A program made the translations under genes and the position numbers. A DNA stretch of 54,850 nt from Nanobdellota archaeon (GTDB taxonomy: Archaea > Nanobdellota > Nanobdellia > Parvarchaeales > Parvarchaeaceae). The DNA lies in NCBI GenBank assembly GCA_021802105.1, contig JAKAAW010000003.1:1-54850 (forward strand), read 5' to 3'. Every line of letters begins with the position of its first letter. Positions within the stretch are counted from its first letter, which is position 1. Positions 1 through 54,850 of the stretch are shown piece after piece. Below the pieces are notes generated by a model. It saw nothing but the letters and a program-made list of their open reading frames with translations. It was not told where the DNA came from and searched no databases.

Positions 1-318
1 ACGATGAGGTAAGATTGATTTTAGTTATGTTTATAGAGTAACCTGTGGAATCTCCTATTGATACTGTGAAGCTGGTGTTGCCTAGGCATTCAGCCTGCAC
101 GCTCCCTAACCCGCTGAAGCCGGTTATAGTCGCCGATATGCTTGACGATGGGGAGAATATCCCAAAAGAGTATAATACTGCCGCAACTATGACTATGATA
201 AGGATGGCCCAGCCATACGTCATCATGTACTCCAGTGCAGACTGGGATCTTTTGTTAGCTAGAATTTTTCTGTCTGTCTGTCTGTCTGTCTGTTATATAT
301 AGGGAGATGCAAAGGCAT
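1..318 (-). CDS. Class III (archaeal type IV pilin-like) signal-peptide surface protein, 5' part; continues past the window start. The cassette start codon ATG(318) is out of frame with the mature part
   Basis: The minus-strand frame (codon starts 250, 247, ...) reads ..NKRSQSALEYMMTYGWAILIIVIVAAVLYSFGIFSPSSSISATITGFSGLGSVQAECLGNTSFTVSIGDSTGYSINITKINLTSS. This is a basic leader, a QSALEY cleavage-type motif and a hydrophobic helix, nearly identical to the N-terminus of the ORF at 27976..29154. ATG at 318 matches the paralog's start, but the (ACAG)6 tract shifts it out of frame. Confidence 0.6.
270..293. repeat. Perfect tetranucleotide microsatellite, (CTGT)6 on plus = (ACAG)6 on the coding minus strand
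   Basis: Read directly: ctgt x6 at 270-273 ... 290-293. This is consistent with the LSVCLSVC stretch in the plus-strand ORF 45..302. Confidence 0.98.
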
Positions 319-341
319 GATTTATATTTGGCTTTAGATGA

Positions 342-348
342 ATTTAAA
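342..348 (-). promoter_or_regulatory. TATA-like box TTTAAAT (minus strand), 23 nt upstream of ATG(318)
   Basis: The same heptamer is conserved in all three cassette copies (342..348, 2043..2049, 29180..29186), 23-25 nt upstream of the conserved ATG. This spacing is typical of archaeal leaderless promoters. Confidence 0.5.
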
Positions 349-394
349 CCTTGTCTTACGGCTTCCTGTTTGCTTGGACTCCGGCTTGCTAGGT

Positions 395-1678
395 TCAAAG
401 TTTGAGGAGCCATTTCCACAGCGGGATGAACCTTATCTTCTTGCCTTTGACTTTCTCCTCGGCTTCGTAGTCCCAGGTTATCACCAAAAGATTGTTGCAG
501 CGAAGTTCTTCAGAAGCGACTAAAAGATTGTCGATTTCTCTGTCAGCGATTTTATTTCCGCTCGAGGTATAAGTCACTTGTATAAGTTCAGTTATCTTAG
601 ATCCTTGTTTTACGACAAAGTCGATTTCTCTTTGTTTATAGTCCCTCCAATAATAAATTTTACTAGTTTTGCCCAGCCGCCTAATCAGCTCAATAAACGC
701 TATATTTTCCATTATATTGCTTTTTTCGTTTAAAGGATTATTAGAAGCAGCGGCCGCCAAAGCGTGATCTACCGCGTAAATTTTCTTTGGCGATCTTATA
801 ATTTCTGCTTTAGAACTTGAATAATTATCTACGGTAAACAGGAGATAGGCGTTTTCTAAATAGGATAAAAACAATTTCGCCGTGTTTGGGCTGCCCAGAT
901 TAAAAACCTTTTGTAATTTAGAAAACGACGCGTTCTTTCCATATAATCCGACAGCGTACATGGCAAACTCTTCAAATCTTTTTGTGTTTCTTATTTCATA
1001 CCTACGCAGGATGTCCCTGTTTATAATGTCCCTCAGATACGCATATATCAAGTCTTTCCTGTCTCTAAGTATGACCTCTGGAAACCCTCCATATTCAATA
1101 TATTTTTCAAATTTAGTTCGTATGGCTGCCAAACCCCAGCTTGTGTAAGGTTCCACATCTCCAGCGAATTCTCTAAAGGACATGGGAAATTCTTCAAACA
1201 AAACATTTCTTCCAGTAAGCGCGGCAGAAACGTCCGATTTTATTAAGCTGCTGTTGCTCCCGGTGACAGATATCCTTATGTCTTCGAATTCCAACATTCG
1301 ATTTACCCATTTTTCCCAGTTCTCCACGTTTTGTATCTCGTCTAAAAAAACATATATTCTTCCTTTCGGCATATATAACTGTAGGTAAGCCTGATACAAA
1401 CGCTCGAAATCACTGACTTCAAACGAAATTAATCTTTCATCCTCAAAATTTACGTAAAGTATATTGTCTTGGTTGACATTGTTTTCCAATAAAAACCGCA
1501 TTGTTTGAAAAAGAAGAGTAGATTTTCCGCACCTTCTCACCCCTGTCAGAATTATCGCTTCCTTAAATTTTACGTGTTCTTCTATGTCGTTTAGTAAATC
1601 TCTTTTTACGCCCTCTTCCCGCCTAAGTATAGCTTCCTTCTGCGTTTTGATTATAAGCTTTAATGCTTCTACTTCCAT
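395..1678 (-). CDS. AAA+ ATPase of the AAA_14/DUF4143 type (COG1373-like)
   Basis: 427 aa with an ATG start. It has a Walker A motif GVRRCGKSTLL and a Walker B-like motif IYVFLDEIQ. The C-terminal half has the layout I associate with DUF4143 proteins. Confidence 0.75.
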   Translation of the reverse strand: MEVEALKLIIKTQKEAILRREEGVKRDLLNDIEEHVKFKEAIILTGVRRCGKSTLLFQTMRFLLENNVNQDNILYVNFEDERLISFEVSDFERLYQAYLQLYMPKGRIYVFLDEIQNVENWEKWVNRMLEFEDIRISVTGSNSSLIKSDVSAALTGRNVLFEEFPMSFREFAGDVEPYTSWGLAAIRTKFEKYIEYGGFPEVILRDRKDLIYAYLRDIINRDILRRYEIRNTKRFEEFAMYAVGLYGKNASFSKLQKVFNLGSPNTAKLFLSYLENAYLLFTVDNYSSSKAEIIRSPKKIYAVDHALAAAASNNPLNEKSNIMENIAFIELIRRLGKTSKIYYWRDYKQREIDFVVKQGSKITELIQVTYTSSGNKIADREIDNLLVASEELRCNNLLVITWDYEAEEKVKGKKIRFIPLWKWLLKL

Positions 1679-1918: not shown

Positions 1919-2017
1919 CTAGCGAGATGTAGAATGTATTTGTTTGATAGCAGACTGTGATCTTTTGTGGATCAGTGGCTCCTTCCGTCTGCCGTTTGTA
2001 TGTATGTGCAAGGGCAT
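1919..2017 (-). pseudogene. Orphan 32-codon fragment of the pilin-like cassette: the leader only, then unrelated sequence and a stop
   Basis: The minus strand reads ATG CCC TTG CAC ..., giving MPLHIHTNGRRKEPLIHKRSQSA and then IKQIHSTSR*. The first 23 codons match 29154..29086 (MPLHIHTNGRRKELLIHKRSQSA). Homology ends exactly at the predicted signal-peptidase site. Confidence 0.55.
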
Positions 2018-2075
2018 ATAATTGGTATTTGGCTTTGGACGGATTTAAACTTTGCTTCCAGGCTTCCTGTTTGCT
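1950..2075 (-). repeat. Copy B (partial, ~126 nt) of the cassette: upstream block, TATA box, ATG and leader only
   Basis: 1950..2075 aligns with 29087..29212 with only a few mismatches. It also aligns with 315..377, which is more diverged. Confidence 0.9.
2043..2049 (-). promoter_or_regulatory. TATA-like box TTTAAAT of cassette copy B, 25 nt upstream of ATG(2017)
   Basis: The heptamer and spacing are conserved as in copies A and C. Confidence 0.4.
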
Positions 2076-2335
2076 GTGCGGATCAAACGGACTGATAGGG
2101 GCATCCCTATTCTTCAACTCTACAGATTTCATTGGAGATAATAACTCCCCAATTACAAATATTCAACAACATGCACCCTGCTTAGTGCGGCTTTCACTCT
2201 CAGAGATCAAGTGTATGCGATAGTTATAGCGCTTACTACAACGCTAGTCTTTATGTCATTGCTGATGTATCTCTTGATAAAGAACCGACCGCTAAAAGGT
2301 AGGAAAGCTTAAATTATTTAAAGAGTAGATAGCTT

Positions 2336-4642: not shown

Positions 4643-6928
4643 TCAAAACAAGACTTTATACCGGTTTAGGAGATCCTTAGTACGCTCTAGTTTTTTCATG
4701 TACATTGACCTCTCCTCATCGTTTTTGGCGTAAGCAAGCTTTCTTTCAAGGTACTGCACCCCTGCCAATCTCTCAACACTGGAACCTCCAGAGTGCCTGA
4801 GTCTGTTTTCTAGGGCTTCGTTGGGAACCATCTCGAATACTATGTATCCTGTTCCTATTTCAGGGTTTGAGGGTACTTTGAGAGATATGTAACCTTGTGG
4901 TGAAGGCTCTTTCCCTATCTTGTTGCTCTCAAAAGTAGTGTAGTCCTGGAACGCCTGTGATCCTATCCCTACAAGTGCATTCATTTTCCCATTGCACATC
5001 TTATTAGTTAGAGATAGATGTGGCCTGTGCTCATCTCCTTTGTATTGTATCACCGCTGGGCTGGTTGTTCGCGTGGGCCGCTCTGACAGTGCCCTGCCTC
5101 CATCCATTCCTCTTATAAAAATACTGTGTTGCATACCGGCAGGGTAAGGTCCTATATGCACGGTTTCGCGCCTTAACATCATCCTTTCTGGATATATGAC
5201 ATTCGCACCGTTCGCCTCTAAGATAGCTCCAAGAGCTTCTGCTTCGTGAAGGTTGTTTGCTGCTTTCTCTACGTGGTTTCCGTTAAGATTATAGAACGCT
5301 TTGAAACCGATATCGGTGAGCTCTTTAAGGAATATAGCGCTCTTGTTCAACTGATCCCCAAGATTTATTATAGGCTCTCCATACACCATCTCCCTTACTC
5401 TTCTCACCATTCTATCATAGGAGATATCCCTTTCCGTCTTGTATAGATCACGTATAACATCCCCATACTGCATTTTTTGGGGGTCTTGTATATCTCCTCT
5501 CATAATCTTGTCTACTGCCCCCTGCAGCATGTCTCCCCCTAATATGGTATACCTCTTGTCTTTGTTTATCCCATCATGTTTTATGTCTTCTAGCAGGGCT
5601 TCGAGAAGTTCGTATTCAGTGTAACCTCCTTCAGGATTGTAACTTGACGCGCCTATGTGGGTGTCGCTTATCCCGTATATCTTTATCATATCTTTTTCGA
5701 GTTCCTTCGGGTTTACCCCTTCTTTAAGGGTCCTGTAATTTATCACTCTTGTCTGTGTTCTACCGTCCTTCATTACCGTGAACATTGTTATACCGCTGTA
5801 AAGGTCACTTCTTTTGACGTCTTTCGTGACATTTCCGGAGGACTTCTTCTTTCTAAGGACAGAGTCGTCGTGCAGAGGAGATACATGCAAAAAATGCGCA
5901 ACTTTGCTCGGTGTCTCTGACTCAGTGTCAGTGTTATATTTTATGGCAGTGTAATACGTTCTTGCTTCATGTCCCCATATATAGACATCCGCCAGCCTTC
6001 CTTCACGCCAGTCCCTATTGGCCTTTTCTATAGCCCGTCTCTCACCATTCAATAGGGGCTCCGGCTCCTTTATTCCGCCATAAATATCTATGTTTGCAGT
6101 GGCGTTTATAGCAGGGGATACTGAGAATTCCACCCCATTTACTTTTAGTCTAACGTCTTCTATGGTTTTTATTATATTGGCACTGTACACCGTTTCGTCT
6201 TTTTTCTTGTAAGACAGGAACGTATCAAGCACTTCTTCCTTGTATATCTTGTTGGCTATATCCACTATCCCGTCCTCATCAAGGTTTCTCCATGCAGACG
6301 CATCTATGTTCTGGGATTTCAAGTGCTGTATAATTTCTGGGTCTAAATCTCTAAGTACAGTGTCAAGATCATCGTCGTCTTTATTCTCATGAGACTGCTT
6401 GTTTATATTAGAAGATCTCTTATGGGATTTTAACAGTTGTTTTATTCTGTCGCCGACATTCGCATAGTCTTTTGGACCATATATCATCGAGATGGGGATG
6501 TTTTTCTCTGCAGCCGCTTCTATTATAGGTCGCATCTCATACTTAGCAAGCAGTGTGGCATCCTCTAGCGTATCCACCGAGTTGCTCCCACTGTTCTTTC
6601 CTTTTATCGCCTTGTGTACCCTTGCTCCATACCTCCCCTTTATATCATCCTCTAGCATGGCTAGGGAACTTTTGTCGCTTCTGCTGTTGCTGTTAAGCGC
6701 ATTTAGAGGATATCTGTACGCACCTCCTAACATTATTATCGCGTCTATCTTATACGGGGAACTTTTTATGAACTGGCCGACATTGTAAAGAACATCCGGA
6801 TCGCTTAGCTTTGTGCTTAGAGCTATATTGGAGAGAACAAGAACGTTTGCTTTGGGTTCGGAATCAAGGTTGTACTCCGAACTTATTTCGCTGTTTAAAA
6901 GCAACTCCTCTAAGTTTTCTTTCATCAT
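4643..6928 (-). CDS. Large two-domain calcineurin-like metallophosphoesterase: an N-terminal degenerate domain plus a C-terminal domain with intact metal-binding motifs
   Basis: 761 aa. The C-terminal half has YGISDTHIG (DxH), ILGGDMLQG (GD), NGNHVE (GNH) and GDEHRPH. The N-terminal half has the same strand pattern but lacks the ligands (VLVLSNIAL, IIMLGGAY, IYGPKDY, IWGHEA). Confidence 0.55.
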   Translation of the reverse strand: MMKENLEELLLNSEISSEYNLDSEPKANVLVLSNIALSTKLSDPDVLYNVGQFIKSSPYKIDAIIMLGGAYRYPLNALNSNSRSDKSSLAMLEDDIKGRYGARVHKAIKGKNSGSNSVDTLEDATLLAKYEMRPIIEAAAEKNIPISMIYGPKDYANVGDRIKQLLKSHKRSSNINKQSHENKDDDDLDTVLRDLDPEIIQHLKSQNIDASAWRNLDEDGIVDIANKIYKEEVLDTFLSYKKKDETVYSANIIKTIEDVRLKVNGVEFSVSPAINATANIDIYGGIKEPEPLLNGERRAIEKANRDWREGRLADVYIWGHEARTYYTAIKYNTDTESETPSKVAHFLHVSPLHDDSVLRKKKSSGNVTKDVKRSDLYSGITMFTVMKDGRTQTRVINYRTLKEGVNPKELEKDMIKIYGISDTHIGASSYNPEGGYTEYELLEALLEDIKHDGINKDKRYTILGGDMLQGAVDKIMRGDIQDPQKMQYGDVIRDLYKTERDISYDRMVRRVREMVYGEPIINLGDQLNKSAIFLKELTDIGFKAFYNLNGNHVEKAANNLHEAEALGAILEANGANVIYPERMMLRRETVHIGPYPAGMQHSIFIRGMDGGRALSERPTRTTSPAVIQYKGDEHRPHLSLTNKMCNGKMNALVGIGSQAFQDYTTFESNKIGKEPSPQGYISLKVPSNPEIGTGYIVFEMVPNEALENRLRHSGGSSVERLAGVQYLERKLAYAKNDEERSMYMKKLERTKDLLNRYKVLF

Positions 6929-27975: not shown

Positions 27976-29154
27976 TCAAGGCGCCTGATAATTGCTAGTG
28001 TACACTATGTTCGCCTGGAGCCCATTATTTCCATTGCCACTGTAATCTTCTGCCGTGCCATTCAAAGGCCACCATCCAAATAAAGTGTTTGATACCTGCT
28101 TTGACATTAAGCCACTGTTGTATATAGAAATTATTTGTGTATGATTTAGCGCGCTTTTGTAAACTTGAATCCCTGACATCATGACATCCGTAACGTGACC
28201 TCCGTCGGGAGCTCCTATAAAAACACTGTCCGAGCCGGCACTTGTACCGGAATATCCACCTCCTGCACTTTCAGCATTGTTGAAATAAAGAGAAGCTGTC
28301 GTATCAGAGGCGTTATATACCCCCACAACAAGATACCAAGAGGTCATGCTTGGTGTAAATGAGTTAGGCTGTGCGCCACCATGGACAAATTCTAAGGGCC
28401 ACGGGCCGGATGTAGTGTAGCCTCCGTTAAAACGCAGATCTCCGCAATGGTAGCCGCACGCAGATGAGTTGCCTAAGGATATCGGATCGAACTGAGGATT
28501 CTGTGTGTCATAAGTTTCTTTTCCTACATTTACCCATGCAACCAGAGAAACGCTGCTTGAGTTGGGAAAATTAAGATTGGATTTTATAATACTTATTATG
28601 GAACTTGTTGTAAAAAATGCTACATACAAAGGTTGAACTGTCAAAGATACTCTACCTGAAACTGTTCCGCTTGACAAGTAAGGGCCTGAAAACGTCTGTC
28701 CGGGTTCTGTGTAGTTAACGCTGACAGATACTGAAAATTTTGAGCCTGCTCTAGGGCATATATTTGACAGGGAGAAGGTGTAAGTCCCGCCTGGCACTAT
28801 CTCCGGATTGGGATCAACCGTTGAGTTTCCAGAGAAAGAAACCGTGTTGCTGTTCCCTGTTGCGGTTATCTTAGTTATGTTTATCGTATTCCCTATATTG
28901 TTACCGAGTTGGATCCTGAGGACCCCATTTGAATAACACTGAGCTGTCACACTACCTAAGTTTGAGAAGCCGGTTATAGTCGCCGATATGCTTGACGATG
29001 GGGAGAATATCCCAAAAGAGTATAATACTGCCGCAACTATGACTATGATAAGGATGGCCCAGCCATAGGTCATCATGTACTCCAATGCAGACTGTGATCT
29101 TTTGTGGATCAGTAGCTCCTTCCGTCTGCCGTTTGTATGTATGTGCAAGGGCAT
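27976..29154 (-). CDS. Class III signal-peptide (pilin-like) surface protein with a C-terminal LamG/concanavalin-like domain
   Basis: 392 aa. The N-terminus is MPLHIHTNGRRKELLIHKRS-QSALEYMMTYGWAILIIVIVAAVLYSFG. A Ser/Thr/Asn-rich middle has several NxS/T sites. The C-terminal LamG-type signatures are SWYLVVGVY...LYFNN...VFIGA...IQVYKSALNHTQIISIYNSG and WWPLNGTAEDYSGNGNNG. Confidence 0.75.
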   Translation of the reverse strand: MPLHIHTNGRRKELLIHKRSQSALEYMMTYGWAILIIVIVAAVLYSFGIFSPSSSISATITGFSNLGSVTAQCYSNGVLRIQLGNNIGNTINITKITATGNSNTVSFSGNSTVDPNPEIVPGGTYTFSLSNICPRAGSKFSVSVSVNYTEPGQTFSGPYLSSGTVSGRVSLTVQPLYVAFFTTSSIISIIKSNLNFPNSSSVSLVAWVNVGKETYDTQNPQFDPISLGNSSACGYHCGDLRFNGGYTTSGPWPLEFVHGGAQPNSFTPSMTSWYLVVGVYNASDTTASLYFNNAESAGGGYSGTSAGSDSVFIGAPDGGHVTDVMMSGIQVYKSALNHTQIISIYNSGLMSKQVSNTLFGWWPLNGTAEDYSGNGNNGLQANIVYTSNYQAP

Positions 29155-29179
29155 ATAATTGGTATTTGGCTTTAGATGG

Positions 29180-29186
29180 ATTTAAA
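29180..29186 (-). promoter_or_regulatory. TATA-like box TTTAAAT, 25 nt upstream of ATG(29154)
   Basis: The element is conserved in all cassette copies. The spacing implies a leaderless mRNA. Confidence 0.5.
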
Positions 29187-29231
29187 CTTTGTCTTACGGC
29201 TTCCTGTTTGAGGGGACTCAAGCTTGCAGAT

Positions 29232-29291
29232 TCAAAGTTTGAGGAGCCATTTCCACAGCGGGACAAATCTTATCTTCTTGCCTTTGACTTC
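29232..29291 (-). pseudogene. Orphan 3'-terminal remnant (19 codons plus stop) of a DUF4143 ATPase gene
   Basis: The minus strand encodes EVKGKKIRFVPLWKWLLKL*, compared with the C-terminus KVKGKKIRFIPLWKWLLKL* of the intact ATPase (395..1678). There is no ATPase body upstream. Confidence 0.7.
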
Positions 29292-29475
29292 TTTCAAAAG
29301 TTCCTTCGTCCTCTTCCGACGTCCGGAAAGCCACTCTCCTTTAACTTTTTGGCTTTCCAAGCCATTTTATGTTATTGTTAAGAACGCGGCTTCCTGAAAT
29401 GCTTTTTAGTCCCTATTTTGGGACTGGTTTACTTCTGTGGATAGCTATAAATAGTATTTCGAGTACGATAAAAAT

Positions 29476-30872: not shown

Positions 30873-31045
30873 CATCTCTCATGAATGAATTCATGGGCTT
30901 CCGGCCCCCATTGAAAGCCTGGGCTTCATCAGAGCGTATAGTTCCCGCTCCTCTGGATACAGTCTGAATTTGCATGCTGTCAGCATATTGTTATTTTATT
31001 ACTTCTGCTATTTATGTTTTCTATTTTTGAGTCCTCTTTCATCCC
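30873..31045 (-). repeat. Copy 1 of a ~150-170-nt promoter-plus-short-ORF module (partner 36105..36250)
   Basis: 30921..30995 is identical to 36127..36201 (75 nt), with recognisable similarity on both flanks. It has a 26-nt internal duplication at 30901..30926. Confidence 0.9.
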
Positions 31046-36104: not shown

Positions 36105-36250
36105 CATCCTCTATGAGTGGATTTATGGGCTTCATCAGAGCGTATAGTTCCCGCTCCTCTGGATACAGTCTGAATTTGCATGCTGTCAGCATATTGTTAT
36201 TCTGCCTCTCCTGCTATTTATGTTTTCCATTCTTTCAGTCCGCTTTCATC
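36105..36250 (-). repeat. Copy 2 of the promoter-plus-short-ORF module (partner 30873..31045)
   Basis: See copy 1. It lies immediately upstream of the dcd start. Confidence 0.9.
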
Positions 36251-49283: not shown

Positions 49284-52200
49284 TTAAGAAGAGCATTTAA
49301 CATTCGTGCGCTTAATGCTAGAATAAGTATATTTTATATTAGTATTGCCACTGCCGGCTACTGCATTTCCTGAACTAGGATCTGGGGTGTAGTAATACTC
49401 ATAATATACACCTGACGTACTACAGTTGCTATATACTCCATTATACGCCTTGAAAGGGTAAGAGCTATCCTGCAAAGCAGATGAATCTATCTGCAATGAA
49501 CTCGTACTGCTACTGCCCACTGCTCCATCAAAAGTGACCGACCAGGAAAAAGAACCGGACGAAGAAGAACTAGATGGAAGTCCGGATTCCTGGAATGTAG
49601 TTATCGAATCTATAGTGCAAATTTTGCTGCTGGAAAATGAGATAGGGTTATTGGAGCTTCCAGACACGGCGTTGCCGGAGGAAGGAGATGGGGAGTAAGT
49701 CCACACATAATGCCCTCCCTCCCTCCAATTACCGCATGGAGCACCTTTAATCTTCAATGAAGGGACGTTGAAATTATAAGTCTTGCCATAACTGCTTGGG
49801 AACAGGTTTATATTTACTATATCAAGCTGAGGCGGGTAGCTGTTGTTGGTGGTAGTATTATATGTTAGGGACCACTTCGTGTTTTTCGGCAGACCATTCT
49901 CTAAGAAGGAAGTAGTCACGTTTTGCGTTAGAGCGAATTTAACCTTCACTGTGGCGCCTGCGTTTGTTTGCCCAAACGAAGGCGAAGCCGAATAGAAACT
50001 GTGGGGACTGTTTACGTTTGGCACGGAGAAATAGTACGAACCTGCGTCTGAGCTTATGCTTATATTGTTAGGAGAGCGCGCTGAGTATGTTGTCCCAGAA
50101 TAAACGACTTTCCACACGTCTCCGGGAGGTAGACCTGTTTCATTAAACACCGTAGTACAGTTAGTCTTTGCGCCGAAGACTATCTGCTTTGTGGTTCCTG
50201 CAGTCAGATTTCCAGAAGCAGGGTTTGGAGTGTATGTGGAAGTGCATGTTTGAGATGCCGATGAATTCACGAGTGTTGGCAGAGAGAAGCCGTGTTTTCC
50301 GCCAGGTGTCAAGAAGGATATTGAATTGGATGCAGACGTCTTAGTCACATTGTCGTAAGTCATCGTCCACGCTTTCCCTTGAGGCAGTCCATTTTCCGCA
50401 AAAGTGGTCGTCTTGAAATGATAGATGGATAAGTACGTGCCGAATTTTGAATCAACCTGATACACTGGTATGGGTATTATATTATAAGTCTTAGGTGAGA
50501 CCAGCAAAGTATAACTCACATTCCATAAGGTTGGTAGATTATAAGCCAGGTAGTACCTGGATGATGTAGTATAGGTCAGATTTCCCGGTGTCTGGTACAG
50601 ACAGTTGACTACATAGCCGTAAAGCACGTTGTTTATCGAATTGCACTCCTCATCGGATGTTAGGTTGACCGACCAGCCGTTTCCTCCGTGGTAAGTAGAT
50701 GTGAAAACCCTCGAATTACCATTAGTGCACACCGTGTTAAGGCCCGTGGCGCTGCCTGTCGTACCTAAAATGTTTACTGAAGGCGCAGATGTATTCCCTG
50801 TTTCGCTAATGCTGTAGAACTGCACCGAATGCAGACCCTGGCTAAGCGCACCTAAAGGCAAGTAAATGCCGCTAGAATAGGCTGGAGGCAGATTCTGACC
50901 CGAACATAGTTCTCCTTCTCCGAGCGAGAACAAATTGTCACTAGGTAAGCCAGGTATGCAGTTTGCAGATGTGCCGCCGGTGAACAGACTCAAAGCATAG
51001 TCATAAACACTGCCATTTACGAAACCCGGAACACCGCTTACACCGAAGTATGGGTTCTGGAGCATCAGTATATTAAGTGTATCGAATGGGAATATTGATG
51101 ACTTCTTTATGGCACTTGAGCCAAGGCTTGATAACAAAATGTTAGTGGGCAATAGATGTGTGATTATGTTTGTAAATTCATTTTGAGACACTGAGAGACC
51201 CGACATGTACTGATCTTTTATCTGAGTGTGGGAACCGCCTTGTGGTATTGATATGTTAGTCGGAAAGGTGGAGTTAATCACACCTATGCCTATCCCAAAC
51301 CCTACGGCTGAGGAACTGTTTGAATACTGCAGAGCGTACGATGAGCTTGTCTCATTCGTTATGCCGAAGTGATCTGCTGTACAGCCGTTCGATACAGTCG
51401 GTTGTGCGTATCCTTTTCCAGAGAAAGGTTTACAGCTTGTCGGCACGGCTCCATTGCTGCTGTTGCCGTTCTCTTGTGAGTAAGAGGTGTAGGATGTCAC
51501 TTCTGTATAGTTAGCCATATAGCATGAAGGGTCTGTGTTTATATTCGCCGCAAAAAGAGTTGCCGGCGCAGATACACACGATTCTATAGTACCGGAATAG
51601 CCTGATGGACAACTGTAAGTTTCACTGTAAGAACTTCCTTTGACTGTCTGACTAGCCGTAGGCGGTGTGATGTTGATAGAATCTCTGCCTATCTCGCAAC
51701 CGCCAACCTCTGGCAAAAAGGTTGTTTTTGATATTATAGGATTGTATATACCTTTGGTAAAATGCGTCCAGCTGGTGGCTATCCCTGCGTTTAGATTGGC
51801 TCCTATAAGGTTCGTAAAGTTACCGCAAGTATTATTGGCAAGCGGGCCGGTCGGGTTTGATTGGGAAGCTGAGATGGAGTTCATTGTCAGATTCATAGAT
51901 TGGCTTATTATATACGGGTATGATGAACTGCTGTAAGAGATGCTGCACTCTGTCACTATTTTCGACTCGTTGATGCTTTGCGCTATGCTAGTGAGAACGA
52001 CAGACGAAGAGCAGTCTGTTCCAGCATTGCCGTTGCTGCATGAAATTGTCGTGTTCTTGTATGATTTCACTCCTGACGAACTGTTAGCGGCATATACCCA
52101 GCCGTTGCAGTTAAAAAGAGCGTCAATCCCGTTTATCGGTGAAGTTGAATTTTCGTACACTTTAGGGATAGTATATGTGGTAGTGCCGGTGGTGCTGGCA

Positions 52201-54850
52201 GAAGAGATTGGTGAAGTTATGGCGAACGCAATGGTGCCATCTGTAGGCATGCAAGAAAATGTGGTACTACCCAGACTGCCTAGGTAGCATCCGCCGCCTA
52301 TCTCGCCGCCGAGTGGAAGTGCTTCTATGTTGCTGTAACTGCCAGAGGATGGAACTGTAGGTACAGGTTTGGAACAGTAAGTCATATCTTGTATAGTGTA
52401 ATTCGCAGGGCAGGAGTTTATGAGAGATATGCCGGATAAACTGTAGACAATTCCTCCTGGACTAGCGAATTGGTCGTTTATTATAGCAGTATAGTTGGCA
52501 AGGTATCTCTCCCCGATGTTGGTAGGATTGTAATCGACCCATGTGCCGTTTACATAGAGCCTAGGCCATTTAAGAATGTACAGTTTCTCTCCGTTCGATA
52601 GCTGTTGTACCCGCGAAGTAGTCGTTACATTCTTTGTCAGGCTGCAGTCGGCGTATAGGGTCGCGTTTATGGCTTTGCCATTAGAACTCGCTGTGCTTAT
52701 GTTGTATATGCCCGGTCTATAAGTCAAGTTCACCGTTTCCCCACCCTTTGTTGCGTAGCTGTTGTTGACTGCTCCTGCCTGTGAGGTATAGGTAGGTCTG
52801 CCGCCGAAAACACAATACACTTTGTTATAGTTGCCAGAGGCGTTGTAAGTGGAATACGGCAGGGTGGTTCCACTAGAATTGATTACGTTTACATTGGCGT
52901 ATATGTTAGGCATGCAAGACATGTTAAGATTTACTCCTGTGTAGTTCGATAGGCCAACCTGTTGTTTCCCTACGTACACTTTTGAGAAGGAGCCGAAGCC
53001 TACGAACTTTGGAGGGGGCACGTAAAAACTCTGGCCACTGCTAGTTTTTACGTATGAGAAATTTGATATGAGTTCATCCGTGACACTGAACGCGACAGCT
53101 GAGCCAGTTGATGAGATTGTGTCAGTTATAACGTTTGAGTTCTTAAAGAAGCAGTAGGTGCTGGATACTGTCTGGGACGGGTTCGTTACCTGATAAAGAT
53201 TGTTGGCGTTGTAATTTATACCACTAAAGTTGCTCTCTTTCCACACGACCCGCTGGGAAGCGGAATACGAAACTAAGAAACAGTCACTTATTGGTCCACT
53301 ATATACCTCCGACACGCTCGCCTGCGATGCAGAGACGTTGTTTACTAGAAGGTCACCTATGTTCGCCCCGTTACTCAGGTGGAAGCCGCTTAAACACGGA
53401 CCGGACGATGCTTTGCAGTTACCTAAAAGCGTTGCGTTGTAGCTATCTGTGGAGAATGCCACGCTGTATGGAGTAGCGGATACGTTTGCCCAATTACTGG
53501 AATATGTTATCGGTGAGGGATTTTCACCTGCAAATATCATGTAAGAATTACCGTTGTACGCTTCGCTCTTGTTGGCTATTATAGAGTAGGTGCACGTACC
53601 ACTAAGAATTGAGTTTACCTGATATGGCAGTTCTGCCATAGGGTAAGGCGAGTTTCCTAGAACCCTGATTCCATTACAGGATCCTTGTTCTGGCAGGGAG
53701 AACGAAAGTGGCATTGGCCCTGCTGATTCGCTGCTGAAGGTCAGGTTGTAAGCTATAGAGGGAGTATCCGACACGACTACCGGGGCGATGAGCAGAAAAT
53801 CGCCAGGCAATGTTCTTGTTACATTGAGAAGAGCCGCCGTCTTGATCACAGTCTGTCCGTTACTAATCTCTGCGAATGAAAGCGTGTAGTTTCCTCTGGT
53901 CTTTAGGACGCAACCGCTATAGTTCAGAATTCCATTGGTTACGACTTTATCCACCAGGCATGATGTGGGATTGCCTGACGAGTCAAATGAGTAGATAGTC
54001 ACATTCTGCGAGTTTAGGGGCACACCGCTATCTGTTACCATCAATGATTTACCGCTTAGGTTCTGGATTGTTATGCCGAGACCCACATCTCCACTTATTA
54101 GGTACTTATTGTTCGATGCGTTCGTGAATACGGCTCTGACCCCTGTGAACGGCTTCTGCACTCTACAAAAGATAGTACCATTTGGAGTATTATAGTATCC
54201 CTGGCTTATTTCCGATGCGGATGACAGATTGTTAGGCTGGGTGTTCAACGTGTCAACTATGTTGCAGTTGAAAGGGGTATCGTTCGCATAATAAAGGTAA
54301 AGTTTTGAATTTGTGAGTATGGTCGTGCGTGGTGGCAATCCGAATACCAAAGTCAACCCATTCTTAGCATATGAAGATAAGTTTATGTTAGCGGTGTACA
54401 CACTGTTGACTTTAGAGTCGGACGAAAGATTTGAAGCTATAAAGTACACTCCATTTGATACTGGATTGGACATATTTATCGCAGAACTATTATAAACTTC
54501 CACATAGAAAGGTCCATACTGGGAACTCACTATCAAGTTATCGTTCAATGAAGATGAGGCTGAAATGCACGATGAACTTGCCACAGATATCGCCCCGGAT
54601 CCGTTTGTAGTCATGGCTGTGTTACCACAGACTGGAGTTCCATCTTTCAGAAGCGACAGCGTTACTTTTTCATGAGCAAACGTTGAGGCGTTTACCAAAG
54701 TTCTAGTTCCGACTATTTTTATAACTGACTTGTCGGCGCGTATGTTACCAGTAAATATGGAAGCACCGTATGCAGAAGACGGGATTGTCGCAATGGATAG
54801 CGATGGCTGCACGGAGAGTGAATTGTACGTATCTGACAGGCCACTCGTCA
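49284..54850 (-). CDS. Giant secreted/surface protein (>1854 aa), with the 5' end outside the window
   Basis: The frame stays open from the GTG at 54812 to the window edge (..TSGLSDTYNSLS-VQPSLSIA..), and no signal peptide is visible, so the true start lies upstream. The composition is very Ser/Thr/Asn/Gly/Tyr-rich, there are dozens of NxS/T sequons, and scattered Cys pairs occur. Four tandem ~95-110-aa modules sit at the C-terminus. Confidence 0.8.
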   Translation of the reverse strand, partial: TSGLSDTYNSLSVQPSLSIATIPSSAYGASIFTGNIRADKSVIKIVGTRTLVNASTFAHEKVTLSLLKDGTPVCGNTAMTTNGSGAISVASSSCISASSSLNDNLIVSSQYGPFYVEVYNSSAINMSNPVSNGVYFIASNLSSDSKVNSVYTANINLSSYAKNGLTLVFGLPPRTTILTNSKLYLYYANDTPFNCNIVDTLNTQPNNLSSASEISQGYYNTPNGTIFCRVQKPFTGVRAVFTNASNNKYLISGDVGLGITIQNLSGKSLMVTDSGVPLNSQNVTIYSFDSSGNPTSCLVDKVVTNGILNYSGCVLKTRGNYTLSFAEISNGQTVIKTAALLNVTRTLPGDFLLIAPVVVSDTPSIAYNLTFSSESAGPMPLSFSLPEQGSCNGIRVLGNSPYPMAELPYQVNSILSGTCTYSIIANKSEAYNGNSYMIFAGENPSPITYSSNWANVSATPYSVAFSTDSYNATLLGNCKASSGPCLSGFHLSNGANIGDLLVNNVSASQASVSEVYSGPISDCFLVSYSASQRVVWKESNFSGINYNANNLYQVTNPSQTVSSTYCFFKNSNVITDTISSTGSAVAFSVTDELISNFSYVKTSSGQSFYVPPPKFVGFGSFSKVYVGKQQVGLSNYTGVNLNMSCMPNIYANVNVINSSGTTLPYSTYNASGNYNKVYCVFGGRPTYTSQAGAVNNSYATKGGETVNLTYRPGIYNISTASSNGKAINATLYADCSLTKNVTTTSRVQQLSNGEKLYILKWPRLYVNGTWVDYNPTNIGERYLANYTAIINDQFASPGGIVYSLSGISLINSCPANYTIQDMTYCSKPVPTVPSSGSYSNIEALPLGGEIGGGCYLGSLGSTTFSCMPTDGTIAFAITSPISSASTTGTTTYTIPKVYENSTSPINGIDALFNCNGWVYAANSSSGVKSYKNTTISCSNGNAGTDCSSSVVLTSIAQSINESKIVTECSISYSSSSYPYIISQSMNLTMNSISASQSNPTGPLANNTCGNFTNLIGANLNAGIATSWTHFTKGIYNPIISKTTFLPEVGGCEIGRDSINITPPTASQTVKGSSYSETYSCPSGYSGTIESCVSAPATLFAANINTDPSCYMANYTEVTSYTSYSQENGNSSNGAVPTSCKPFSGKGYAQPTVSNGCTADHFGITNETSSSYALQYSNSSSAVGFGIGIGVINSTFPTNISIPQGGSHTQIKDQYMSGLSVSQNEFTNIITHLLPTNILLSSLGSSAIKKSSIFPFDTLNILMLQNPYFGVSGVPGFVNGSVYDYALSLFTGGTSANCIPGLPSDNLFSLGEGELCSGQNLPPAYSSGIYLPLGALSQGLHSVQFYSISETGNTSAPSVNILGTTGSATGLNTVCTNGNSRVFTSTYHGGNGWSVNLTSDEECNSINNVLYGYVVNCLYQTPGNLTYTTSSRYYLAYNLPTLWNVSYTLLVSPKTYNIIPIPVYQVDSKFGTYLSIYHFKTTTFAENGLPQGKAWTMTYDNVTKTSASNSISFLTPGGKHGFSLPTLVNSSASQTCTSTYTPNPASGNLTAGTTKQIVFGAKTNCTTVFNETGLPPGDVWKVVYSGTTYSARSPNNISISSDAGSYYFSVPNVNSPHSFYSASPSFGQTNAGATVKVKFALTQNVTTSFLENGLPKNTKWSLTYNTTTNNSYPPQLDIVNINLFPSSYGKTYNFNVPSLKIKGAPCGNWREGGHYVWTYSPSPSSGNAVSGSSNNPISFSSSKICTIDSITTFQESGLPSSSSSSGSFSWSVTFDGAVGSSSTSSLQIDSSALQDSSYPFKAYNGVYSNCSTSGVYYEYYYTPDPSSGNAVAGSGNTNIKYTYSSIKRTNVKCSS
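49287..50411 (-). repeat. Four tandem protein-level modules (FxExGLP ... W.V.Y ... Y.F.VP ... P.P.SG..AG) at the C-terminus of the giant protein
   Basis: The module starts are TTFAENGLPQGKAWTMTYDN.., TVFNETGLPPGDVWKVVYSG.., TSFLENGLPKNTKWSLTYNT.. and TTFQESGLPSSSSSSGSFSWSVTFDG... They are diverged at the DNA level. Confidence 0.75.

What the first reader, a model, noticed from the sequence alone, without database searches (positions are those of the whole stretch)
28966..29292. A ~330-nt expression/export cassette is shared almost identically by two otherwise diverged surface-protein genes, with a sharp identity boundary
**The module.** 28966..29292 and 116..455 are the same module. Read on the minus strand it contains, in order:
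- the last 19 codons and stop of a DUF4143 ATPase gene
- a conserved upstream block
- TTTAAAT
- a leaderless ATG
- the basic leader
- the QSALEY cleavage motif
- the TM helix up to ..ATITGFS

**Identity and its boundary.** Across the ~140 nt encoding KRSQSALEY..TGFS I see 3 mismatches, all synonymous (ACC/ACG, TTG/CTG, TCA/TCC). Identity stops abruptly at 28966/116. Beyond that point the two proteins are only loosely similar (NLGSVTAQCYSNGVLRIQLGNNIGNTINITKI versus GLGSVQAECLGNTSFTVSIGDSTGYSINITKI).

**Interpretation.** This pattern suggests gene conversion or recombination that homogenises a 5' promoter/signal-peptide cassette in front of diverging surface domains. That is the substrate needed for cassette swapping or antigenic-variation-like shuffling of adhesins.
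Basis: partly seen in the sequence, partly recalled or inferred. Interest (0 to 1): 0.65.

Follow-up and report, generated by a model that had tools for sequence, protein, structure and literature searches.

The report
Shared 5' module of archaeal adhesin genes
Two pilin-like surface-adhesin genes of a tiny acid-mine archaeon (Parvarchaeota) share a promoter and signal-peptide module that recombination between gene copies keeps nearly identical, and a four-letter DNA stutter inside that module may switch such genes on and off.

Summary

It is not uniform:
- signal-peptide/helix coding part: 97.8% identical
- ATPase tail: 90%
- promoter: 83%
- leader: 60%

There is also a third, truncated copy at 1950-2090. 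In copy A the ATG is out of frame because of a (CAGA)6 repeat.

The genes encode type IV pilin-like proteins (class III signal peptide) with a LamG lectin domain. They belong to a large Parvarchaeota (ARMAN-4/5-like) family.

Gene conversion among the 5' modules is well supported:
- Synonymous divergence is about 0.1 in the module and saturated in the gene body.
- The similarity runs into a dead ATPase gene tail.
- One 64-nt promoter patch accounts for all 13 differences between otherwise identical strains.
- Across 18 genomes, modules cluster by genome more often than bodies do.

Cassette swapping is not shown. Different assemblies join the same body to different upstream DNA, but the shared repeat exceeds the assembler's k-mer (141 nt), and no raw or long reads were available.

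All 14 simple repeats in 468 kb of family loci lie in these leaders. Repeat number differs (8 vs 9) at one locus between strains. This points to Opa-like phase variation, still unproven.

The parts
29230..29292 (-). Copy B: remnant of the last ~20 codons and stop codon of a DUF4143/AAA_14 ATPase gene. No ATPase gene lies upstream of it.
   Evidence: It is 90.5-94% identical to the tail of the intact ATPase gene at 393-455. Upstream of it lies a Diphthamide_syn fragment on the other strand.
29155..29229 (-). Copy B: promoter block with a TATA-like TTTAAAT at 29180-29186. This sits 32 nt before the ATG, so a leaderless mRNA is inferred.
   Evidence: The same geometry (30-32 nt) is seen in all copies of this species.
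29174..29237 (-). Promoter patch that differs between strains at the same locus; read as a gene-conversion tract.
   Evidence: 13 of the 33 differences between the window and L005 fall in this stretch (binomial P = 3e-16). Only 4 differences lie in about 5.9 kb of unique upstream DNA. L092 and L093 differ from the window in this patch and nowhere else in 7.2 kb. The window's version matches the patch of another paralog, L006.
29104..29154 (-). Copy B: ATG (29152-29154) and basic leader MPLHIHTNGRRKELLIH, in frame with the rest of the gene.
28966..29103 (-). Copy B: KRS|QSALEY prepilin-type cleavage motif (Glu at +5) followed by the hydrophobic helix, up to ..ATITGF. This is the near-identical core of the repeat.
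   Evidence: 135/138 nt are identical to 116-253. AlphaFold predicts a helix at residues 23-46. Summed metagenome depth here is 35-350 times that of the flanks.
27976..28965 (-). Copy B: ectodomain, made of a beta-rich pilin-like domain and a LamG/ConA-like jelly roll.
   Evidence: Pfam PF13385, E = 1.4e-9. AF2 model and Foldseek hits to lectin and pentraxin domains.
395..1678 (-). Intact AAA_14 + DUF4143 ATPase gene (427 aa). Its last ~20 codons (393-455) form the upstream end of copy A.
   Evidence: Pfam. PADLOC candidate defence family PDC-S01, E = 1.5e-108.
319..392 (-). Copy A: promoter block, with TTTAAAT at 342-348.
   Evidence: 82.9% identical to copy B.
254..318 (-). Copy A: ATG (316-318) and leader region containing a perfect (CAGA)6 run at 269-292. 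The ATG frame stops after 19 codons, so the ATG is out of frame with KRSQSALEY.
   Evidence: Seven or ten repeat units would restore the frame.
116..253 (-). Copy A: coding sequence for the KRS|QSALEY motif and the hydrophobic helix.
1..115 (-). Copy A: start of a different ectodomain (GLGSVQAECLGNTSFTVS..), which runs off the window. Its linkage to the cassette is uncertain.
   Evidence: L001 continues from the same ATPase and cassette into another gene body. Depth is 168 here against 20-28 for the ATPase.
1950..2090 (-). Copy C: orphan promoter (TTTAAAT at 2043-2049) with ATG (2015-2017) and a B-type leader. It is cut off right after ..KRSQSA and fused to unrelated DNA upstream of the ATPase gene.
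   Evidence: 94% identical to 29087-29210. Sequence read. Present in L001-L004 as well.

Best explanation
The repeat is the 5' module of a large paralogous family of surface proteins in an acid-mine-drainage Parvarchaeota (ARMAN-4/5-like DPANN archaeon).

**What the module contains**
- an archaeal TATA-type promoter 30-32 nt before the ATG, implying a leaderless mRNA (inferred)
- a short basic leader
- a class III (type IV prepilin-like) cleavage site, KRS|QSALEY, with Glu at +5
- the hydrophobic alpha-1 helix that would anchor the protein in the membrane or in a pilus core

Behind the module come different exposed domains: a beta-rich pilin-like domain and a LamG lectin-like jelly roll, presumably adhesins for the host cell.

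**How it evolves**
Non-reciprocal homologous recombination (gene conversion) between paralogs keeps the module nearly identical within a genome. Conversion tracts have variable ends. In this pair the downstream end falls just after the helix. The upstream end lies in the tail of a DUF4143 ATPase gene that was carried along when the module spread.

**The leader**
The leader between the ATG and the cleavage site is the one hypervariable part. In many copies it carries a (CAGA)n repeat whose length sets the reading frame. Copy A of the window is out of frame.

**Shown:** the repeat, its boundary, the fold classes, the depressed synonymous divergence, the mosaic tracts, and the clustering of modules by genome.

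**Inferred:** promoter function, processing by a prepilin peptidase, the adhesin role, and any switching.
For: **Repeat and boundary**
- 3/138 against 62/115 mismatches, 0/2000 permutations.

**Protein class**
- Basic leader, KRS|QSALEY with Glu at +5, hydrophobic stretch.
- AF2 helix at residues 23-46, beta domain at 59-168, jelly roll at 178-386.
- Foldseek hits to ConA-like, LamG and pentraxin lectin domains.
- Pfam Laminin_G_3 above its cut-off.
- 1302 homologs, named LamG proteins of Parvarchaeota/ARMAN.

**Gene conversion**
- dS is 0.06-0.2 in the 47-codon module (A-B 0.12; up to 0.46 for the pairs of copy A or L001 with the second body type, P0011). In the bodies pS is 0.52-0.92, i.e. 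dS from 0.87 to saturated.
- Identity runs through the non-coding promoter and a dead ATPase tail.
- Copies share patches in mosaic fashion, and downstream end-points differ..GGCTTC| for A/B and ..GCATATC| for the second body type, P0011.
- The window and L092/L093 (same locus, same flanks) differ only in a 64-nt promoter patch that matches another paralog (P = 3e-16).

**Family-wide pattern in 18 genomes, including the Sanger-era ARMAN-4**
- Helix variants are genome-specific, while bodies fall into cross-genome groups.
- The nearest neighbour lies in the same genome for the module in 52/71 cases and for the body in 26/71 (chance 0.08).
- Among pairs with bodies under 70% identical, 31% of within-genome pairs have modules at least 85% identical, against 0.6% of between-genome pairs.

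**Multicopy state in nature**
- Summed depth of the core is 35-350 times that of the unique flanks in four metagenomes.
- Independent k=31 contigs cross the body/module boundary by 30 nt at flank depth.
- The window's arrangement around copy B recurs in 9 contigs.
Against: - All sequences come from short-read metagenome assemblies. No raw or long reads could be inspected.
- In four public runs that hold both flanks of copy B at about 40x, the exact B-type leader is absent. The leader joined to body B therefore differs between samples, or the window's join is sample-specific.
- In most other genomes the modules of paralogs are only about 80% identical at the DNA level. Homogenisation is thus partial and episodic. 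ARMAN-4 pairs reach only 0.70-0.90.
- Some nucleotide conservation could reflect codon or sequence constraints. A 29-nt exact match to the core occurs in an otherwise unrelated contig, L007.
- No prepilin peptidase or pilus assembly genes lie in the window, and no transcript data were found.
Confidence: 0.75

Rival explanations
1. Purifying selection alone: the signal peptide and helix are conserved because pilus assembly requires them, and the nucleotide identity follows from protein and codon constraints after an old duplication.
For: - The amino-acid sequence QSALEYMMTYGWAIL[IV]IVIV is nearly invariant across the whole family and across species.
- A 29-nt exact match occurs even in an unrelated contig.
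- The conserved H-domain of Haloferax PilA1-6 is functionally required (PMC4371748).
Against: - Synonymous sites are several-fold to more than ten-fold less diverged in the module than in the body.
- Identity continues through about 140 nt of non-coding DNA and an ATPase gene remnant with no coding role.
- Between genomes the same peptide is encoded with only about 72% DNA identity, so protein constraint does not fix the nucleotides.
Confidence: 0.05
2. Assembly artefact: the near-identity, the sharp boundary, or both arise because a short-read assembler collapsed or mis-joined a multicopy repeat in a mixed-strain metagenome.
For: - Copy A sits at the window edge.
- Public contigs carrying the same ATPase break off inside or within about 1 kb beyond the repeat. 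One of them, L001, continues into a different body.
- Depth of window 1-121 is 6-8 times that of the adjacent ATPase.
- Contigs with 0-7 SNPs in 3.9 kb downstream carry four different upstream contexts, and the shared exact repeat is longer than k=141.
- The B-type leader is missing from four runs that hold both flanks.
Against: - The two flanks of copy B have equal depth in four runs (42.3/37.6, 44.6/42.6, 133.5/138.1, 10.4/7.2).
- Independent k=31 contigs enter the module from the body side and from the upstream side at that depth.
- The same arrangement recurs in 9 contigs from different samples.
- A and B differ at 3 positions spaced less than 141 nt apart, so a k=141 graph can separate them.
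- The same module-versus-body pattern is seen in SPAdes MAGs and in the Sanger-era ARMAN-4 assembly.

The artefact reading applies to long-range linkage, especially at copy A, and not to the existence of the shared module.
Confidence: 0.1
3. Programmed cassette swapping: a dedicated recombination system joins one expression module to alternative gene bodies, as in Mycoplasma vsa, Moraxella pilin inversion or Neisseria pilE/pilS.
For: - The same body is found with 3-5 different leaders, and the same leader with 2 bodies, in different assemblies.
- The module coincides with breaks of gene order between contigs that are 99.4-99.9% identical.
- An orphan promoter-plus-leader copy (C) exists.
Against: - Every full copy has its own promoter and start codon, so there is no single expression site with silent cassettes.
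- No recombinase gene lies beside A, B or C.
- A and B are direct repeats with the essential rpo operon between them.
- The alternative junctions are not reliable, because the repeat is longer than k and than the read length.
- Tract end-points vary instead of falling at one fixed site.
Confidence: 0.1
4. A recent segmental duplication of an ATPase-tail/promoter/5' segment, followed by very fast diversifying selection on the ectodomain, with no continuing gene conversion.
For: - The ATPase tail shows that the module was copied as DNA from an ATPase-pilin junction.
- Exposed domains of adhesins often evolve fast; dN in the bodies is 0.36-0.58.
Against: - Synonymous sites of the bodies are saturated too, so the bodies are old.
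- Bodies have closer relatives in other genomes than in their own.
- A strain-specific 64-nt replacement inside the promoter shows exchange is recent and patchwise.
Confidence: 0.08

Closest known systems
Haloferax volcanii adhesion pilins PilA1-PilA6 (Esquivel et al. 2013; reviewed in PMC4371748)
   Same: - Several paralogous archaeal type IV pilin genes are scattered outside pilus operons.
- All share an almost completely conserved signal-peptide H-domain in front of different exposed parts.
   Different: - In Haloferax the conservation was described at the protein level and for six small pilins.
- Here the family has dozens of members per genome, each carrying a LamG lectin domain.
- Here the conservation is at the DNA level, includes the promoter and a foreign gene remnant, and shows the marks of gene conversion.
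Neisseria opa genes (from my own knowledge, not checked with the tools)
   Same: - Many scattered paralogs of a surface adhesin, each with its own promoter.
- A short repeat whose unit is not a multiple of three lies inside the leader-peptide coding region and sets the reading frame.
- Recombination between paralogs produces mosaics.
   Different: - Opa proteins are bacterial outer-membrane beta-barrels with a Sec signal peptide and a CTCTT repeat.
- Here the host is an archaeon, the signal is a prepilin-type one, and the repeat is CAGA.
- On/off switching has not been observed here.
Mycoplasma variable surface lipoprotein families (vlp, vsp, vsa) (from my own knowledge)
   Same: - A wall-less or minimal-genome organism living on other cells.
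- A gene family with a highly conserved promoter and signal-peptide 5' region in front of divergent surface domains.
- Variation driven by simple repeats or recombination.
   Different: - Those systems use lipoprotein signals.
- They rely on promoter poly-A tracts or site-specific recombinases acting at fixed sites.
- No recombinase or fixed crossover site is seen here.
Expansion of LamG-like jelly-roll proteins in DPANN archaea (Golyshina et al. 2017, PMC5498576)
   Same: - The same kind of protein in the same kind of organism: ARMAN-type acidophilic episymbionts.
- These proteins were proposed to mediate contact with the Thermoplasmatales host, and some are linked to type IV pilus loci.
   Different: That work noted the expansion only. 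It did not describe a shared 5' DNA module, concerted evolution, or leader repeats.

Membership tests
Type IV pilin-like proteins (class III signal peptide) | A short positively charged leader, a small residue at -1, and a cleavage site that precedes the hydrophobic domain | tested here: met
   ..HKRS|QSALEYMMTYGWAILIIVIVAAVLY.. in copy B, with the same motif in copy A's frame and in all relatives.
Type IV pilin-like proteins (class III signal peptide) | An acidic residue at +5 of the mature protein (near-universal in bacterial pilins, present in a subset of archaeal ones) | tested here: met
   In Q1-S2-A3-L4-E5 the Glu is invariant across 16 aligned relatives.
Type IV pilin-like proteins (class III signal peptide) | An N-terminal hydrophobic alpha-helix followed by a beta-rich globular domain | tested here: met
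   The AF2 model has a helix at 23-46 and strands at 59-168 (mean pLDDT 70). No solved pilin appeared among the Foldseek hits, which were dominated by the C-terminal domain.
Type IV pilin-like proteins (class III signal peptide) | Processing by a PibD/FlaK/EppA-type prepilin peptidase and assembly by a PilB/PilC-type machine | not testable with these tools
This needs the full genome and proteomics.
LamG / concanavalin A-like lectin domain proteins | A jelly-roll beta-sandwich matching the family profile | tested here: met
   PF13385 scores 38.7 bits against a cut-off of 27.6, residues 193-341. Foldseek hits include carbohydrate-binding protein 4dqa (E = 4e-9), the neuraminidase lectin domain and pentraxins.
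Multigene family under concerted evolution by gene conversion | The converted tract is more alike between paralogs within a genome than between genomes, while flanking parts are not | tested here: met
   - Mean identity within and between genomes: module 0.805 and 0.717, body 0.583 and 0.560.
- Nearest neighbour in the same genome: 52/71 for the module and 26/71 for the body.
Multigene family under concerted evolution by gene conversion | Depressed synonymous divergence in the tract, extension into non-coding DNA, and mosaic tracts with variable ends | tested here: met
   dS is 0.06-0.2 in most pairs (up to 0.46) in the tract, against 0.87 to saturated in the bodies. The tract includes the promoter and an ATPase-tail remnant. 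Patches and differing end-points are seen.
Simple-repeat contingency locus (phase variation by slipped-strand mispairing) | A repeat with a unit not divisible by three, lying between the start codon and the functional part of the gene | tested here: met
   (CAGA)6 at 269-292 lies between the ATG and KRSQSALEY. All 14 simple repeats in 467,764 nt of family loci lie 0-120 nt upstream of a QSALEY codon.
Simple-repeat contingency locus (phase variation by slipped-strand mispairing) | Repeat number varies between closely related strains at the same locus and changes the frame | tested here: inconclusive
   - n = 8 (L008) against n = 9 (L090, L091) at the same HEPN-flanked locus; these are assemblies only.
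- n = 2-20 among paralogs.
- Every tract of six or more units but one (L037, n = 7) is out of frame, and short ones are mostly in frame.
- Public k=31 contigs break inside the repeat and cannot count alleles.
Simple-repeat contingency locus (phase variation by slipped-strand mispairing) | Reversible on/off expression within a population | not testable with these tools
   No raw reads were available, and nothing from the three metatranscriptome runs could be laid on the locus.
Programmed cassette-swapping systems (shufflon, vsa, pilE/pilS type) | A dedicated recombinase and/or a single expression site with promoterless silent cassettes | tested here: not met
   Neighbours are endonuclease III, RNase HII, a Dph fragment, seryl-tRNA synthetase and an ATPase. 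Each full copy has its own TTTAAAT and ATG.
Programmed cassette-swapping systems (shufflon, vsa, pilE/pilS type) | Alternative junctions on single DNA molecules from one population | tested here: inconclusive
   Alternative junctions exist between assemblies. However, the repeat exceeds k=141 and the flanks are clonal. No long reads were found.

The most novel reading that the evidence does not exclude
The pilin-like LamG adhesin genes of Parvarchaeota are contingency loci of the Neisseria Opa type. Slippage of a (CAGA)n run (or a (CA)n run in some genomes) inside the cleaved leader switches translation of individual paralogs on and off. Gene conversion between the shared 5' modules moves 'on' and 'off' leaders and promoters among paralogs. 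A clonal population of this episymbiont would then display changing sets of host-binding adhesins. This would be the first repeat-driven phase and antigenic variation system described in Archaea.
Probability: 0.35. Interest if true: 0.8.

Novelty: new member of a known kind. Interest (0 to 1): 0.58.

Why it matters
DPANN archaea such as ARMAN live attached to other archaea. How they recognise and hold on to hosts is largely unknown. Their expanded LamG and pilin-like proteins are the main candidates.

If these genes share a recombining 5' module, that explains three things:
- how the family stays compatible with a single export and assembly machine while its exposed parts diversify
- why these genomes fragment at these genes in metagenome assemblies
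- why contigs joined across them should be treated with caution

The leader repeats offer a concrete, testable route to on/off switching of adhesins. Such switching is well known in bacterial pathogens and mycoplasmas. I found no report of it for archaea in the literature I could search.

Tried and rejected
- **Species-representative genomes.** An exact 29-mer of the core found nothing there.
- **JGI metagenome contigs.** The same 29-mer found only one, unrelated, contig. The cassette census had to come from protein-guided searches instead.
- **Read-level checks.** Only k=31 Logan contigs were available and no Nanopore runs. These contigs break at the repeat. They gave depth and short boundary crossings but no linkage and no allele counts for the CAGA run.
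- **Transcripts.** Three metatranscriptome runs from the same study gave nothing on this locus.
- **NCBIfam.** It has no model for either the adhesin or the ATPase.
- **ATPase tail as sign of an intact ATPase upstream of every copy.** Rejected: in most copies, including 8 of 9 in MAG FK4.bin88, only the tail remains.
- **Module as a mobile element.** Considered, but I did not search the module's ends for inverted repeats or target duplications. Every full copy sits in frame at the 5' end of a family member, and only the truncated orphan, copy C, does not.
- **Alternative leader/body/upstream combinations as proof of shuffling.** Rejected after finding 0-7 SNPs in 3.9 kb downstream and an exact repeat longer than k.
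Full report
**1. The observation**

I cut the module into its parts and compared copy A (window 1-455) with copy B (28851-29292).

| Part | Identity A vs B |
|---|---|
| ATPase tail | 57/63 (90.5%) |
| Promoter block | 82.9% |
| ATG-to-Lys leader | 60%, with a 14-nt length difference |
| KRSQSALEY..ATITGF coding stretch | 135/138 (97.8%) |
| Next 115 nt | about 57% |

- A maximum chi-square scan of the gap-free coding alignment puts the break at 116/28966. There are 3/138 mismatches on one side and 62/115 on the other. None of 2000 permutations reached this value.
- A 29-mer of the core occurs twice in the window, with none expected by chance.

The core observation is therefore correct. "Almost identical over 330 nt" overstates it.

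**2.

- *A third, truncated copy (C, 1950-2090).* It has the promoter, TTTAAAT, the ATG and a leader 94% identical to copy B's. It stops right after ..KRSQSA and is fused to unrelated DNA upstream of the ATPase gene. The ATPase gene thus sits between two direct copies of the promoter module.
- *Copy A is out of frame.* A perfect (CAGA)6 run (269-292) lies between the ATG and the cleavage motif. It is the only perfect simple repeat in the 54.8 kb. The ATG frame ends after 19 codons, and the KRSQSALEY frame has a TAA just before the repeat and no start codon. Seven or ten units would restore the frame. As assembled, copy A is not an intact expression cassette.

**3. What the genes are**

- Copy B encodes 392 aa. 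The sequence begins with a basic leader, then KRS|QSALEY with Glu at +5, then a hydrophobic stretch.
- The AlphaFold model (mean pLDDT 70) has a helix at residues 23-46, a beta-rich domain at 59-168 and a jelly roll at 178-386.
- The jelly roll matches Pfam Laminin_G_3 above its cut-off.
- By fold it matches carbohydrate-binding proteins, a neuraminidase lectin domain and pentraxins.
- The protein has 1302 relatives. Those that carry names are LamG proteins of Candidatus Parvarchaeota or ARMAN-4/5.
- The runs that hold the sequence are mine-drainage and tailings metagenomes.
- Golyshina et al. noted an expansion of LamG-like proteins in DPANN archaea and proposed a role in host contact (PMC5498576).
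- The window otherwise holds housekeeping genes: the split rpoB and rpoA operon, tRNA synthetases, RtcB and Lon. It has no pilus machinery.

**4. Is the 5' identity due to selection or to recombination?**

- *Synonymous divergence.* Over the 47-codon module dS is 0.06-0.2 in most paralog pairs (A-B 0.12) and 0.36-0.46 in the two pairs of copy A or L001 with the second body type, P0011. Over the next 37-120 codons pS is 0.52-0.92, i.e. dS from 0.87 to saturated. Protein-level selection alone cannot produce that contrast.
- *Non-coding extent.* The similarity continues through the promoter into the last ~20 codons of a DUF4143 ATPase gene. That gene is intact only next to copy A. Next to copy B, and next to most relatives, only the tail remains.
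- *Mosaic structure.* An alignment of ten copies from this species shows different downstream end-points, and patches of synonymous variants shared by copies with different bodies.
- *The clearest single event.* Two other assemblies of exactly the same locus (L092, L093: same flanks, same leader, same body) differ from the window by 13 changes packed into 29174-29237 and nowhere else in 7.2 kb. The window's version of this patch matches the patch of another paralog, L006. Against L005, only 4 differences lie in about 5.9 kb of unique upstream DNA, against 13 in the patch (P = 3e-16). The patch lies within 141 nt of unique DNA on one side and of the B/C-specific leader on the other. A k=141 assembly therefore ties it to this locus.

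**5. Does the pattern hold outside this assembly?**

A protein-guided scan of species-representative genomes found 489 relatives. I examined 78 loci from 18 Parvarchaeota genomes, including SPAdes MAGs and the Sanger-era ARMAN-4/5.

- The helix carries genome-specific variants, for example ..VAVILYSMGIFNP.. in ARMAN-4 and ..VAGVLYSLGIF[ST]P.. in FK4.bin88. The ectodomains fall into groups shared across genomes.
- Within genomes the 126-nt module is 80.5% identical on average, against 71.7% between genomes. For bodies the figures are 58.3% and 56.0%.
- The nearest relative lies in the same genome for 52/71 modules, 37/71 upstream regions and 26/71 bodies. Chance expectation is 8%.
- Among pairs whose bodies are under 70% identical, 31% of within-genome pairs have modules at least 85% identical, against 0.6% of between-genome pairs.

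This is concerted evolution of the 5' module. It is partial: most pairs sit near 80%, and ARMAN-4 pairs reach only 0.70-0.90. The near-identity in the window reflects recent events.

**6. Copy number in nature**

- In four metagenomes the unique flanks of copy B have equal depth on both sides: 42.3/37.6, 44.6/42.6, 133.5/138.1 and 10.4/7.2.
- Contigs at least 90% alike pile up over the module. Summed depth is 35-50 times the flank over the 3' half of the helix, 250-350 times or more over QSALEYMMTYGWAIL, and 8-35 times over the promoter and ATPase tail.
- The leader stays at flank depth.
- The core is thus shared by a very large number of genes in the community.
- Independent k=31 contigs enter the module from the body and from the upstream side at flank depth. 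This supports the boundaries.

**7. Cassette swapping: why I do not accept it as shown**

Protein clusters show the same body with different leaders:
- Body B occurs with MPLHIHTNGRRKELLIHK, with M[RP]LRFPIYNRQKN[PS]LINK, with MTDRKILANK, or with no in-frame start.
- A second body (P0011) occurs with the first two of these leaders, or behind (CAGA)8-9.

The contigs show that each body keeps its downstream neighbours, while the upstream neighbours change:
- Rad50/Mre11...RNase HII
- SufBD...primase
- a second DUF4143 ATPase
- AbiEii
- MNT/HEPN

This looks like shuffling. However:
- The downstream 3.9 kb differs by only 0-7 SNPs between these contigs. L009 and L010 have none, yet have different upstream DNA.
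- The exact repeat shared by such copies (3' promoter, leader and helix: about 175-240 nt) is longer than the k=141 of these MEGAHIT assemblies and longer than typical short reads.

Long-range joins across the module are therefore unreliable.

- In four public runs that hold both flanks of copy B at about 40x, the B-type leader is absent and only copy C's version is present. So the leader in front of B is either truly variable between samples or mis-joined somewhere.
- The window's own arrangement around copy B recurs in 9 contigs and is the best supported one.
- At copy A, public contigs carrying the same ATPase stop within about 1 kb beyond it. One of them, L001, continues into a different body. 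The depth of window 1-121 is 6-8 times that of the ATPase. That join is uncertain.
- A and B are direct repeats with the rpo operon between them, so reciprocal exchange between them would be lethal. Only non-reciprocal conversion is plausible for this pair.

**8. The leader repeat**

- In this species the CAGA run has 2, 6, 8 or 9 units, or is degenerate (1 unit, as in copy B).
- At one locus (MNT/HEPN upstream, P0011 body downstream) it has 8 units in one MAG and 9 in two other assemblies.
- The first ATG always lies 30-32 nt after TTTAAAT. With 6, 8 or 9 units it is out of frame. The two leaders without a long run are in frame. A TATATA-to-TATATG variant creates a second, in-frame ATG.
- In MAG FK2.bin89, paralogs carry (ACAG)n with n = 2, 2, 3 and 7 in frame, and n = 10, 10, 13 and 20 out of frame.
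- Other genomes have (CA)n at the same place.
- In 467,764 nt of window plus loci, all 14 simple repeats lie 0-120 nt upstream of a QSALEY codon, in gene orientation. That space is 1.3% of the sequence. Some of the 14 are the same locus seen in different assemblies; about 10 are independent.
- When in frame the repeat encodes (TDRQ)n in a peptide that is cut off, so length changes would be tolerated.

This is the layout of a contingency locus, closest to Neisseria opa. That comparison is from my own knowledge. Switching within a population has not been observed here.

**9. Comparison with known systems and novelty**

- Conserved H-domains among scattered archaeal pilin paralogs are known from Haloferax PilA1-6 (PMC4371748).
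- LamG expansions in DPANN are known (PMC5498576).
- Gene conversion and leader repeats in surface-protein families are classical in bacteria.
- Full-text searches for Parvarchaeota/pili/LamG, archaeal pilins/gene conversion, phase variation in archaea, and DPANN/phase variation found no description of DNA-level concerted evolution of pilin 5' modules or of leader repeats in DPANN.

I file the finding as a new member of a known kind. The repeat-switch reading is the more novel possibility.

**10. Verdict**

- The gene-conversion reading is supported (confidence about 0.75).
- Cassette swapping is not shown and is partly explained by assembly limits.
- Opa-like phase variation is a plausible extension (about 0.35) that long reads or amplicons could settle.

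Noticed in passing
window 269-292 (-); also L008, L090, L091, L013, L037, L053, L064, L066, L073, L080, L067: Simple repeats sit between the ATG and the signal-peptide cleavage motif of pilin-like genes in several Parvarchaeota genomes. They are (CAGA)n, written (ACAG)n on some loci, with n = 2-20, and (CA)9 in ARMAN-4. All 14 simple repeats in 468 kb lie there. Repeat number differs (8 vs 9) at one locus between near-identical strains.
   Followed up: partly
window 1950-2090 (-): An orphan copy of the promoter, ATG and leader. It is cut off after ..KRSQSA and fused to unrelated DNA. Together with copy A it brackets the ATPase gene as a direct repeat.
   Followed up: partly
window 395-1678 (-): The AAA_14/DUF4143 ATPase matches the PADLOC candidate defence family PDC-S01 (E = 1.5e-108). 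In metagenome X1 its depth (20-28, two alleles) is lower than that of the rest of the window (about 40), so it may be present in only part of the population. In other assemblies the genes found upstream of cassettes are also defence or toxin-antitoxin types: AbiEii, MNT/HEPN and a second DUF4143 ATPase.
   Followed up: partly
window 29042-29109: In four mine-drainage metagenomes, contigs at least 90% alike to the QSALEYMMTYGWAIL coding stretch sum to 5,000-50,000x where the flanks have 10-135x. An exact 29-nt match also occurs in an otherwise unrelated JGI contig (L007, Ga0315275_10073408). The nucleotide sequence of this core may be shared well beyond this species.
   Followed up: no
window 30920-31028 and 36126-36234: Another direct repeat: 109 nt, 93% identical, 5.2 kb apart. 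One copy lies upstream of the Mre11-like gene and the other near 36.1-36.3 kb. It is unrelated to the pilin module.
   Followed up: no
window 49284-54812 (-): A very large ORF (1842 aa) with no Pfam match. The 761-aa ORF at 4643-6928 (-) also has none.
   Followed up: no
L006 92-2608 and L009 652-3168: The SufB-like gene in the alternative upstream context carries faint intein and LAGLIDADG endonuclease hits. A short HTH_OrfB_IS605 fragment lies right before the cassette there.
   Followed up: no
FK4.bin88 loci L019, L027, L030, L034, L047, L049, L055: In this genome the ATPase-tail remnant ..TGGAAATGGCTCCTTAATCTTTAAAT overlaps the TATA-like box: the ATPase stop codon TAA lies inside TTTAAAT. 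In the window species the equivalent box is degraded to TTTGAAT, and a second TTTAAAT lies about 50 nt further on. The tail may have spread because it is part of the promoter.
   Followed up: partly
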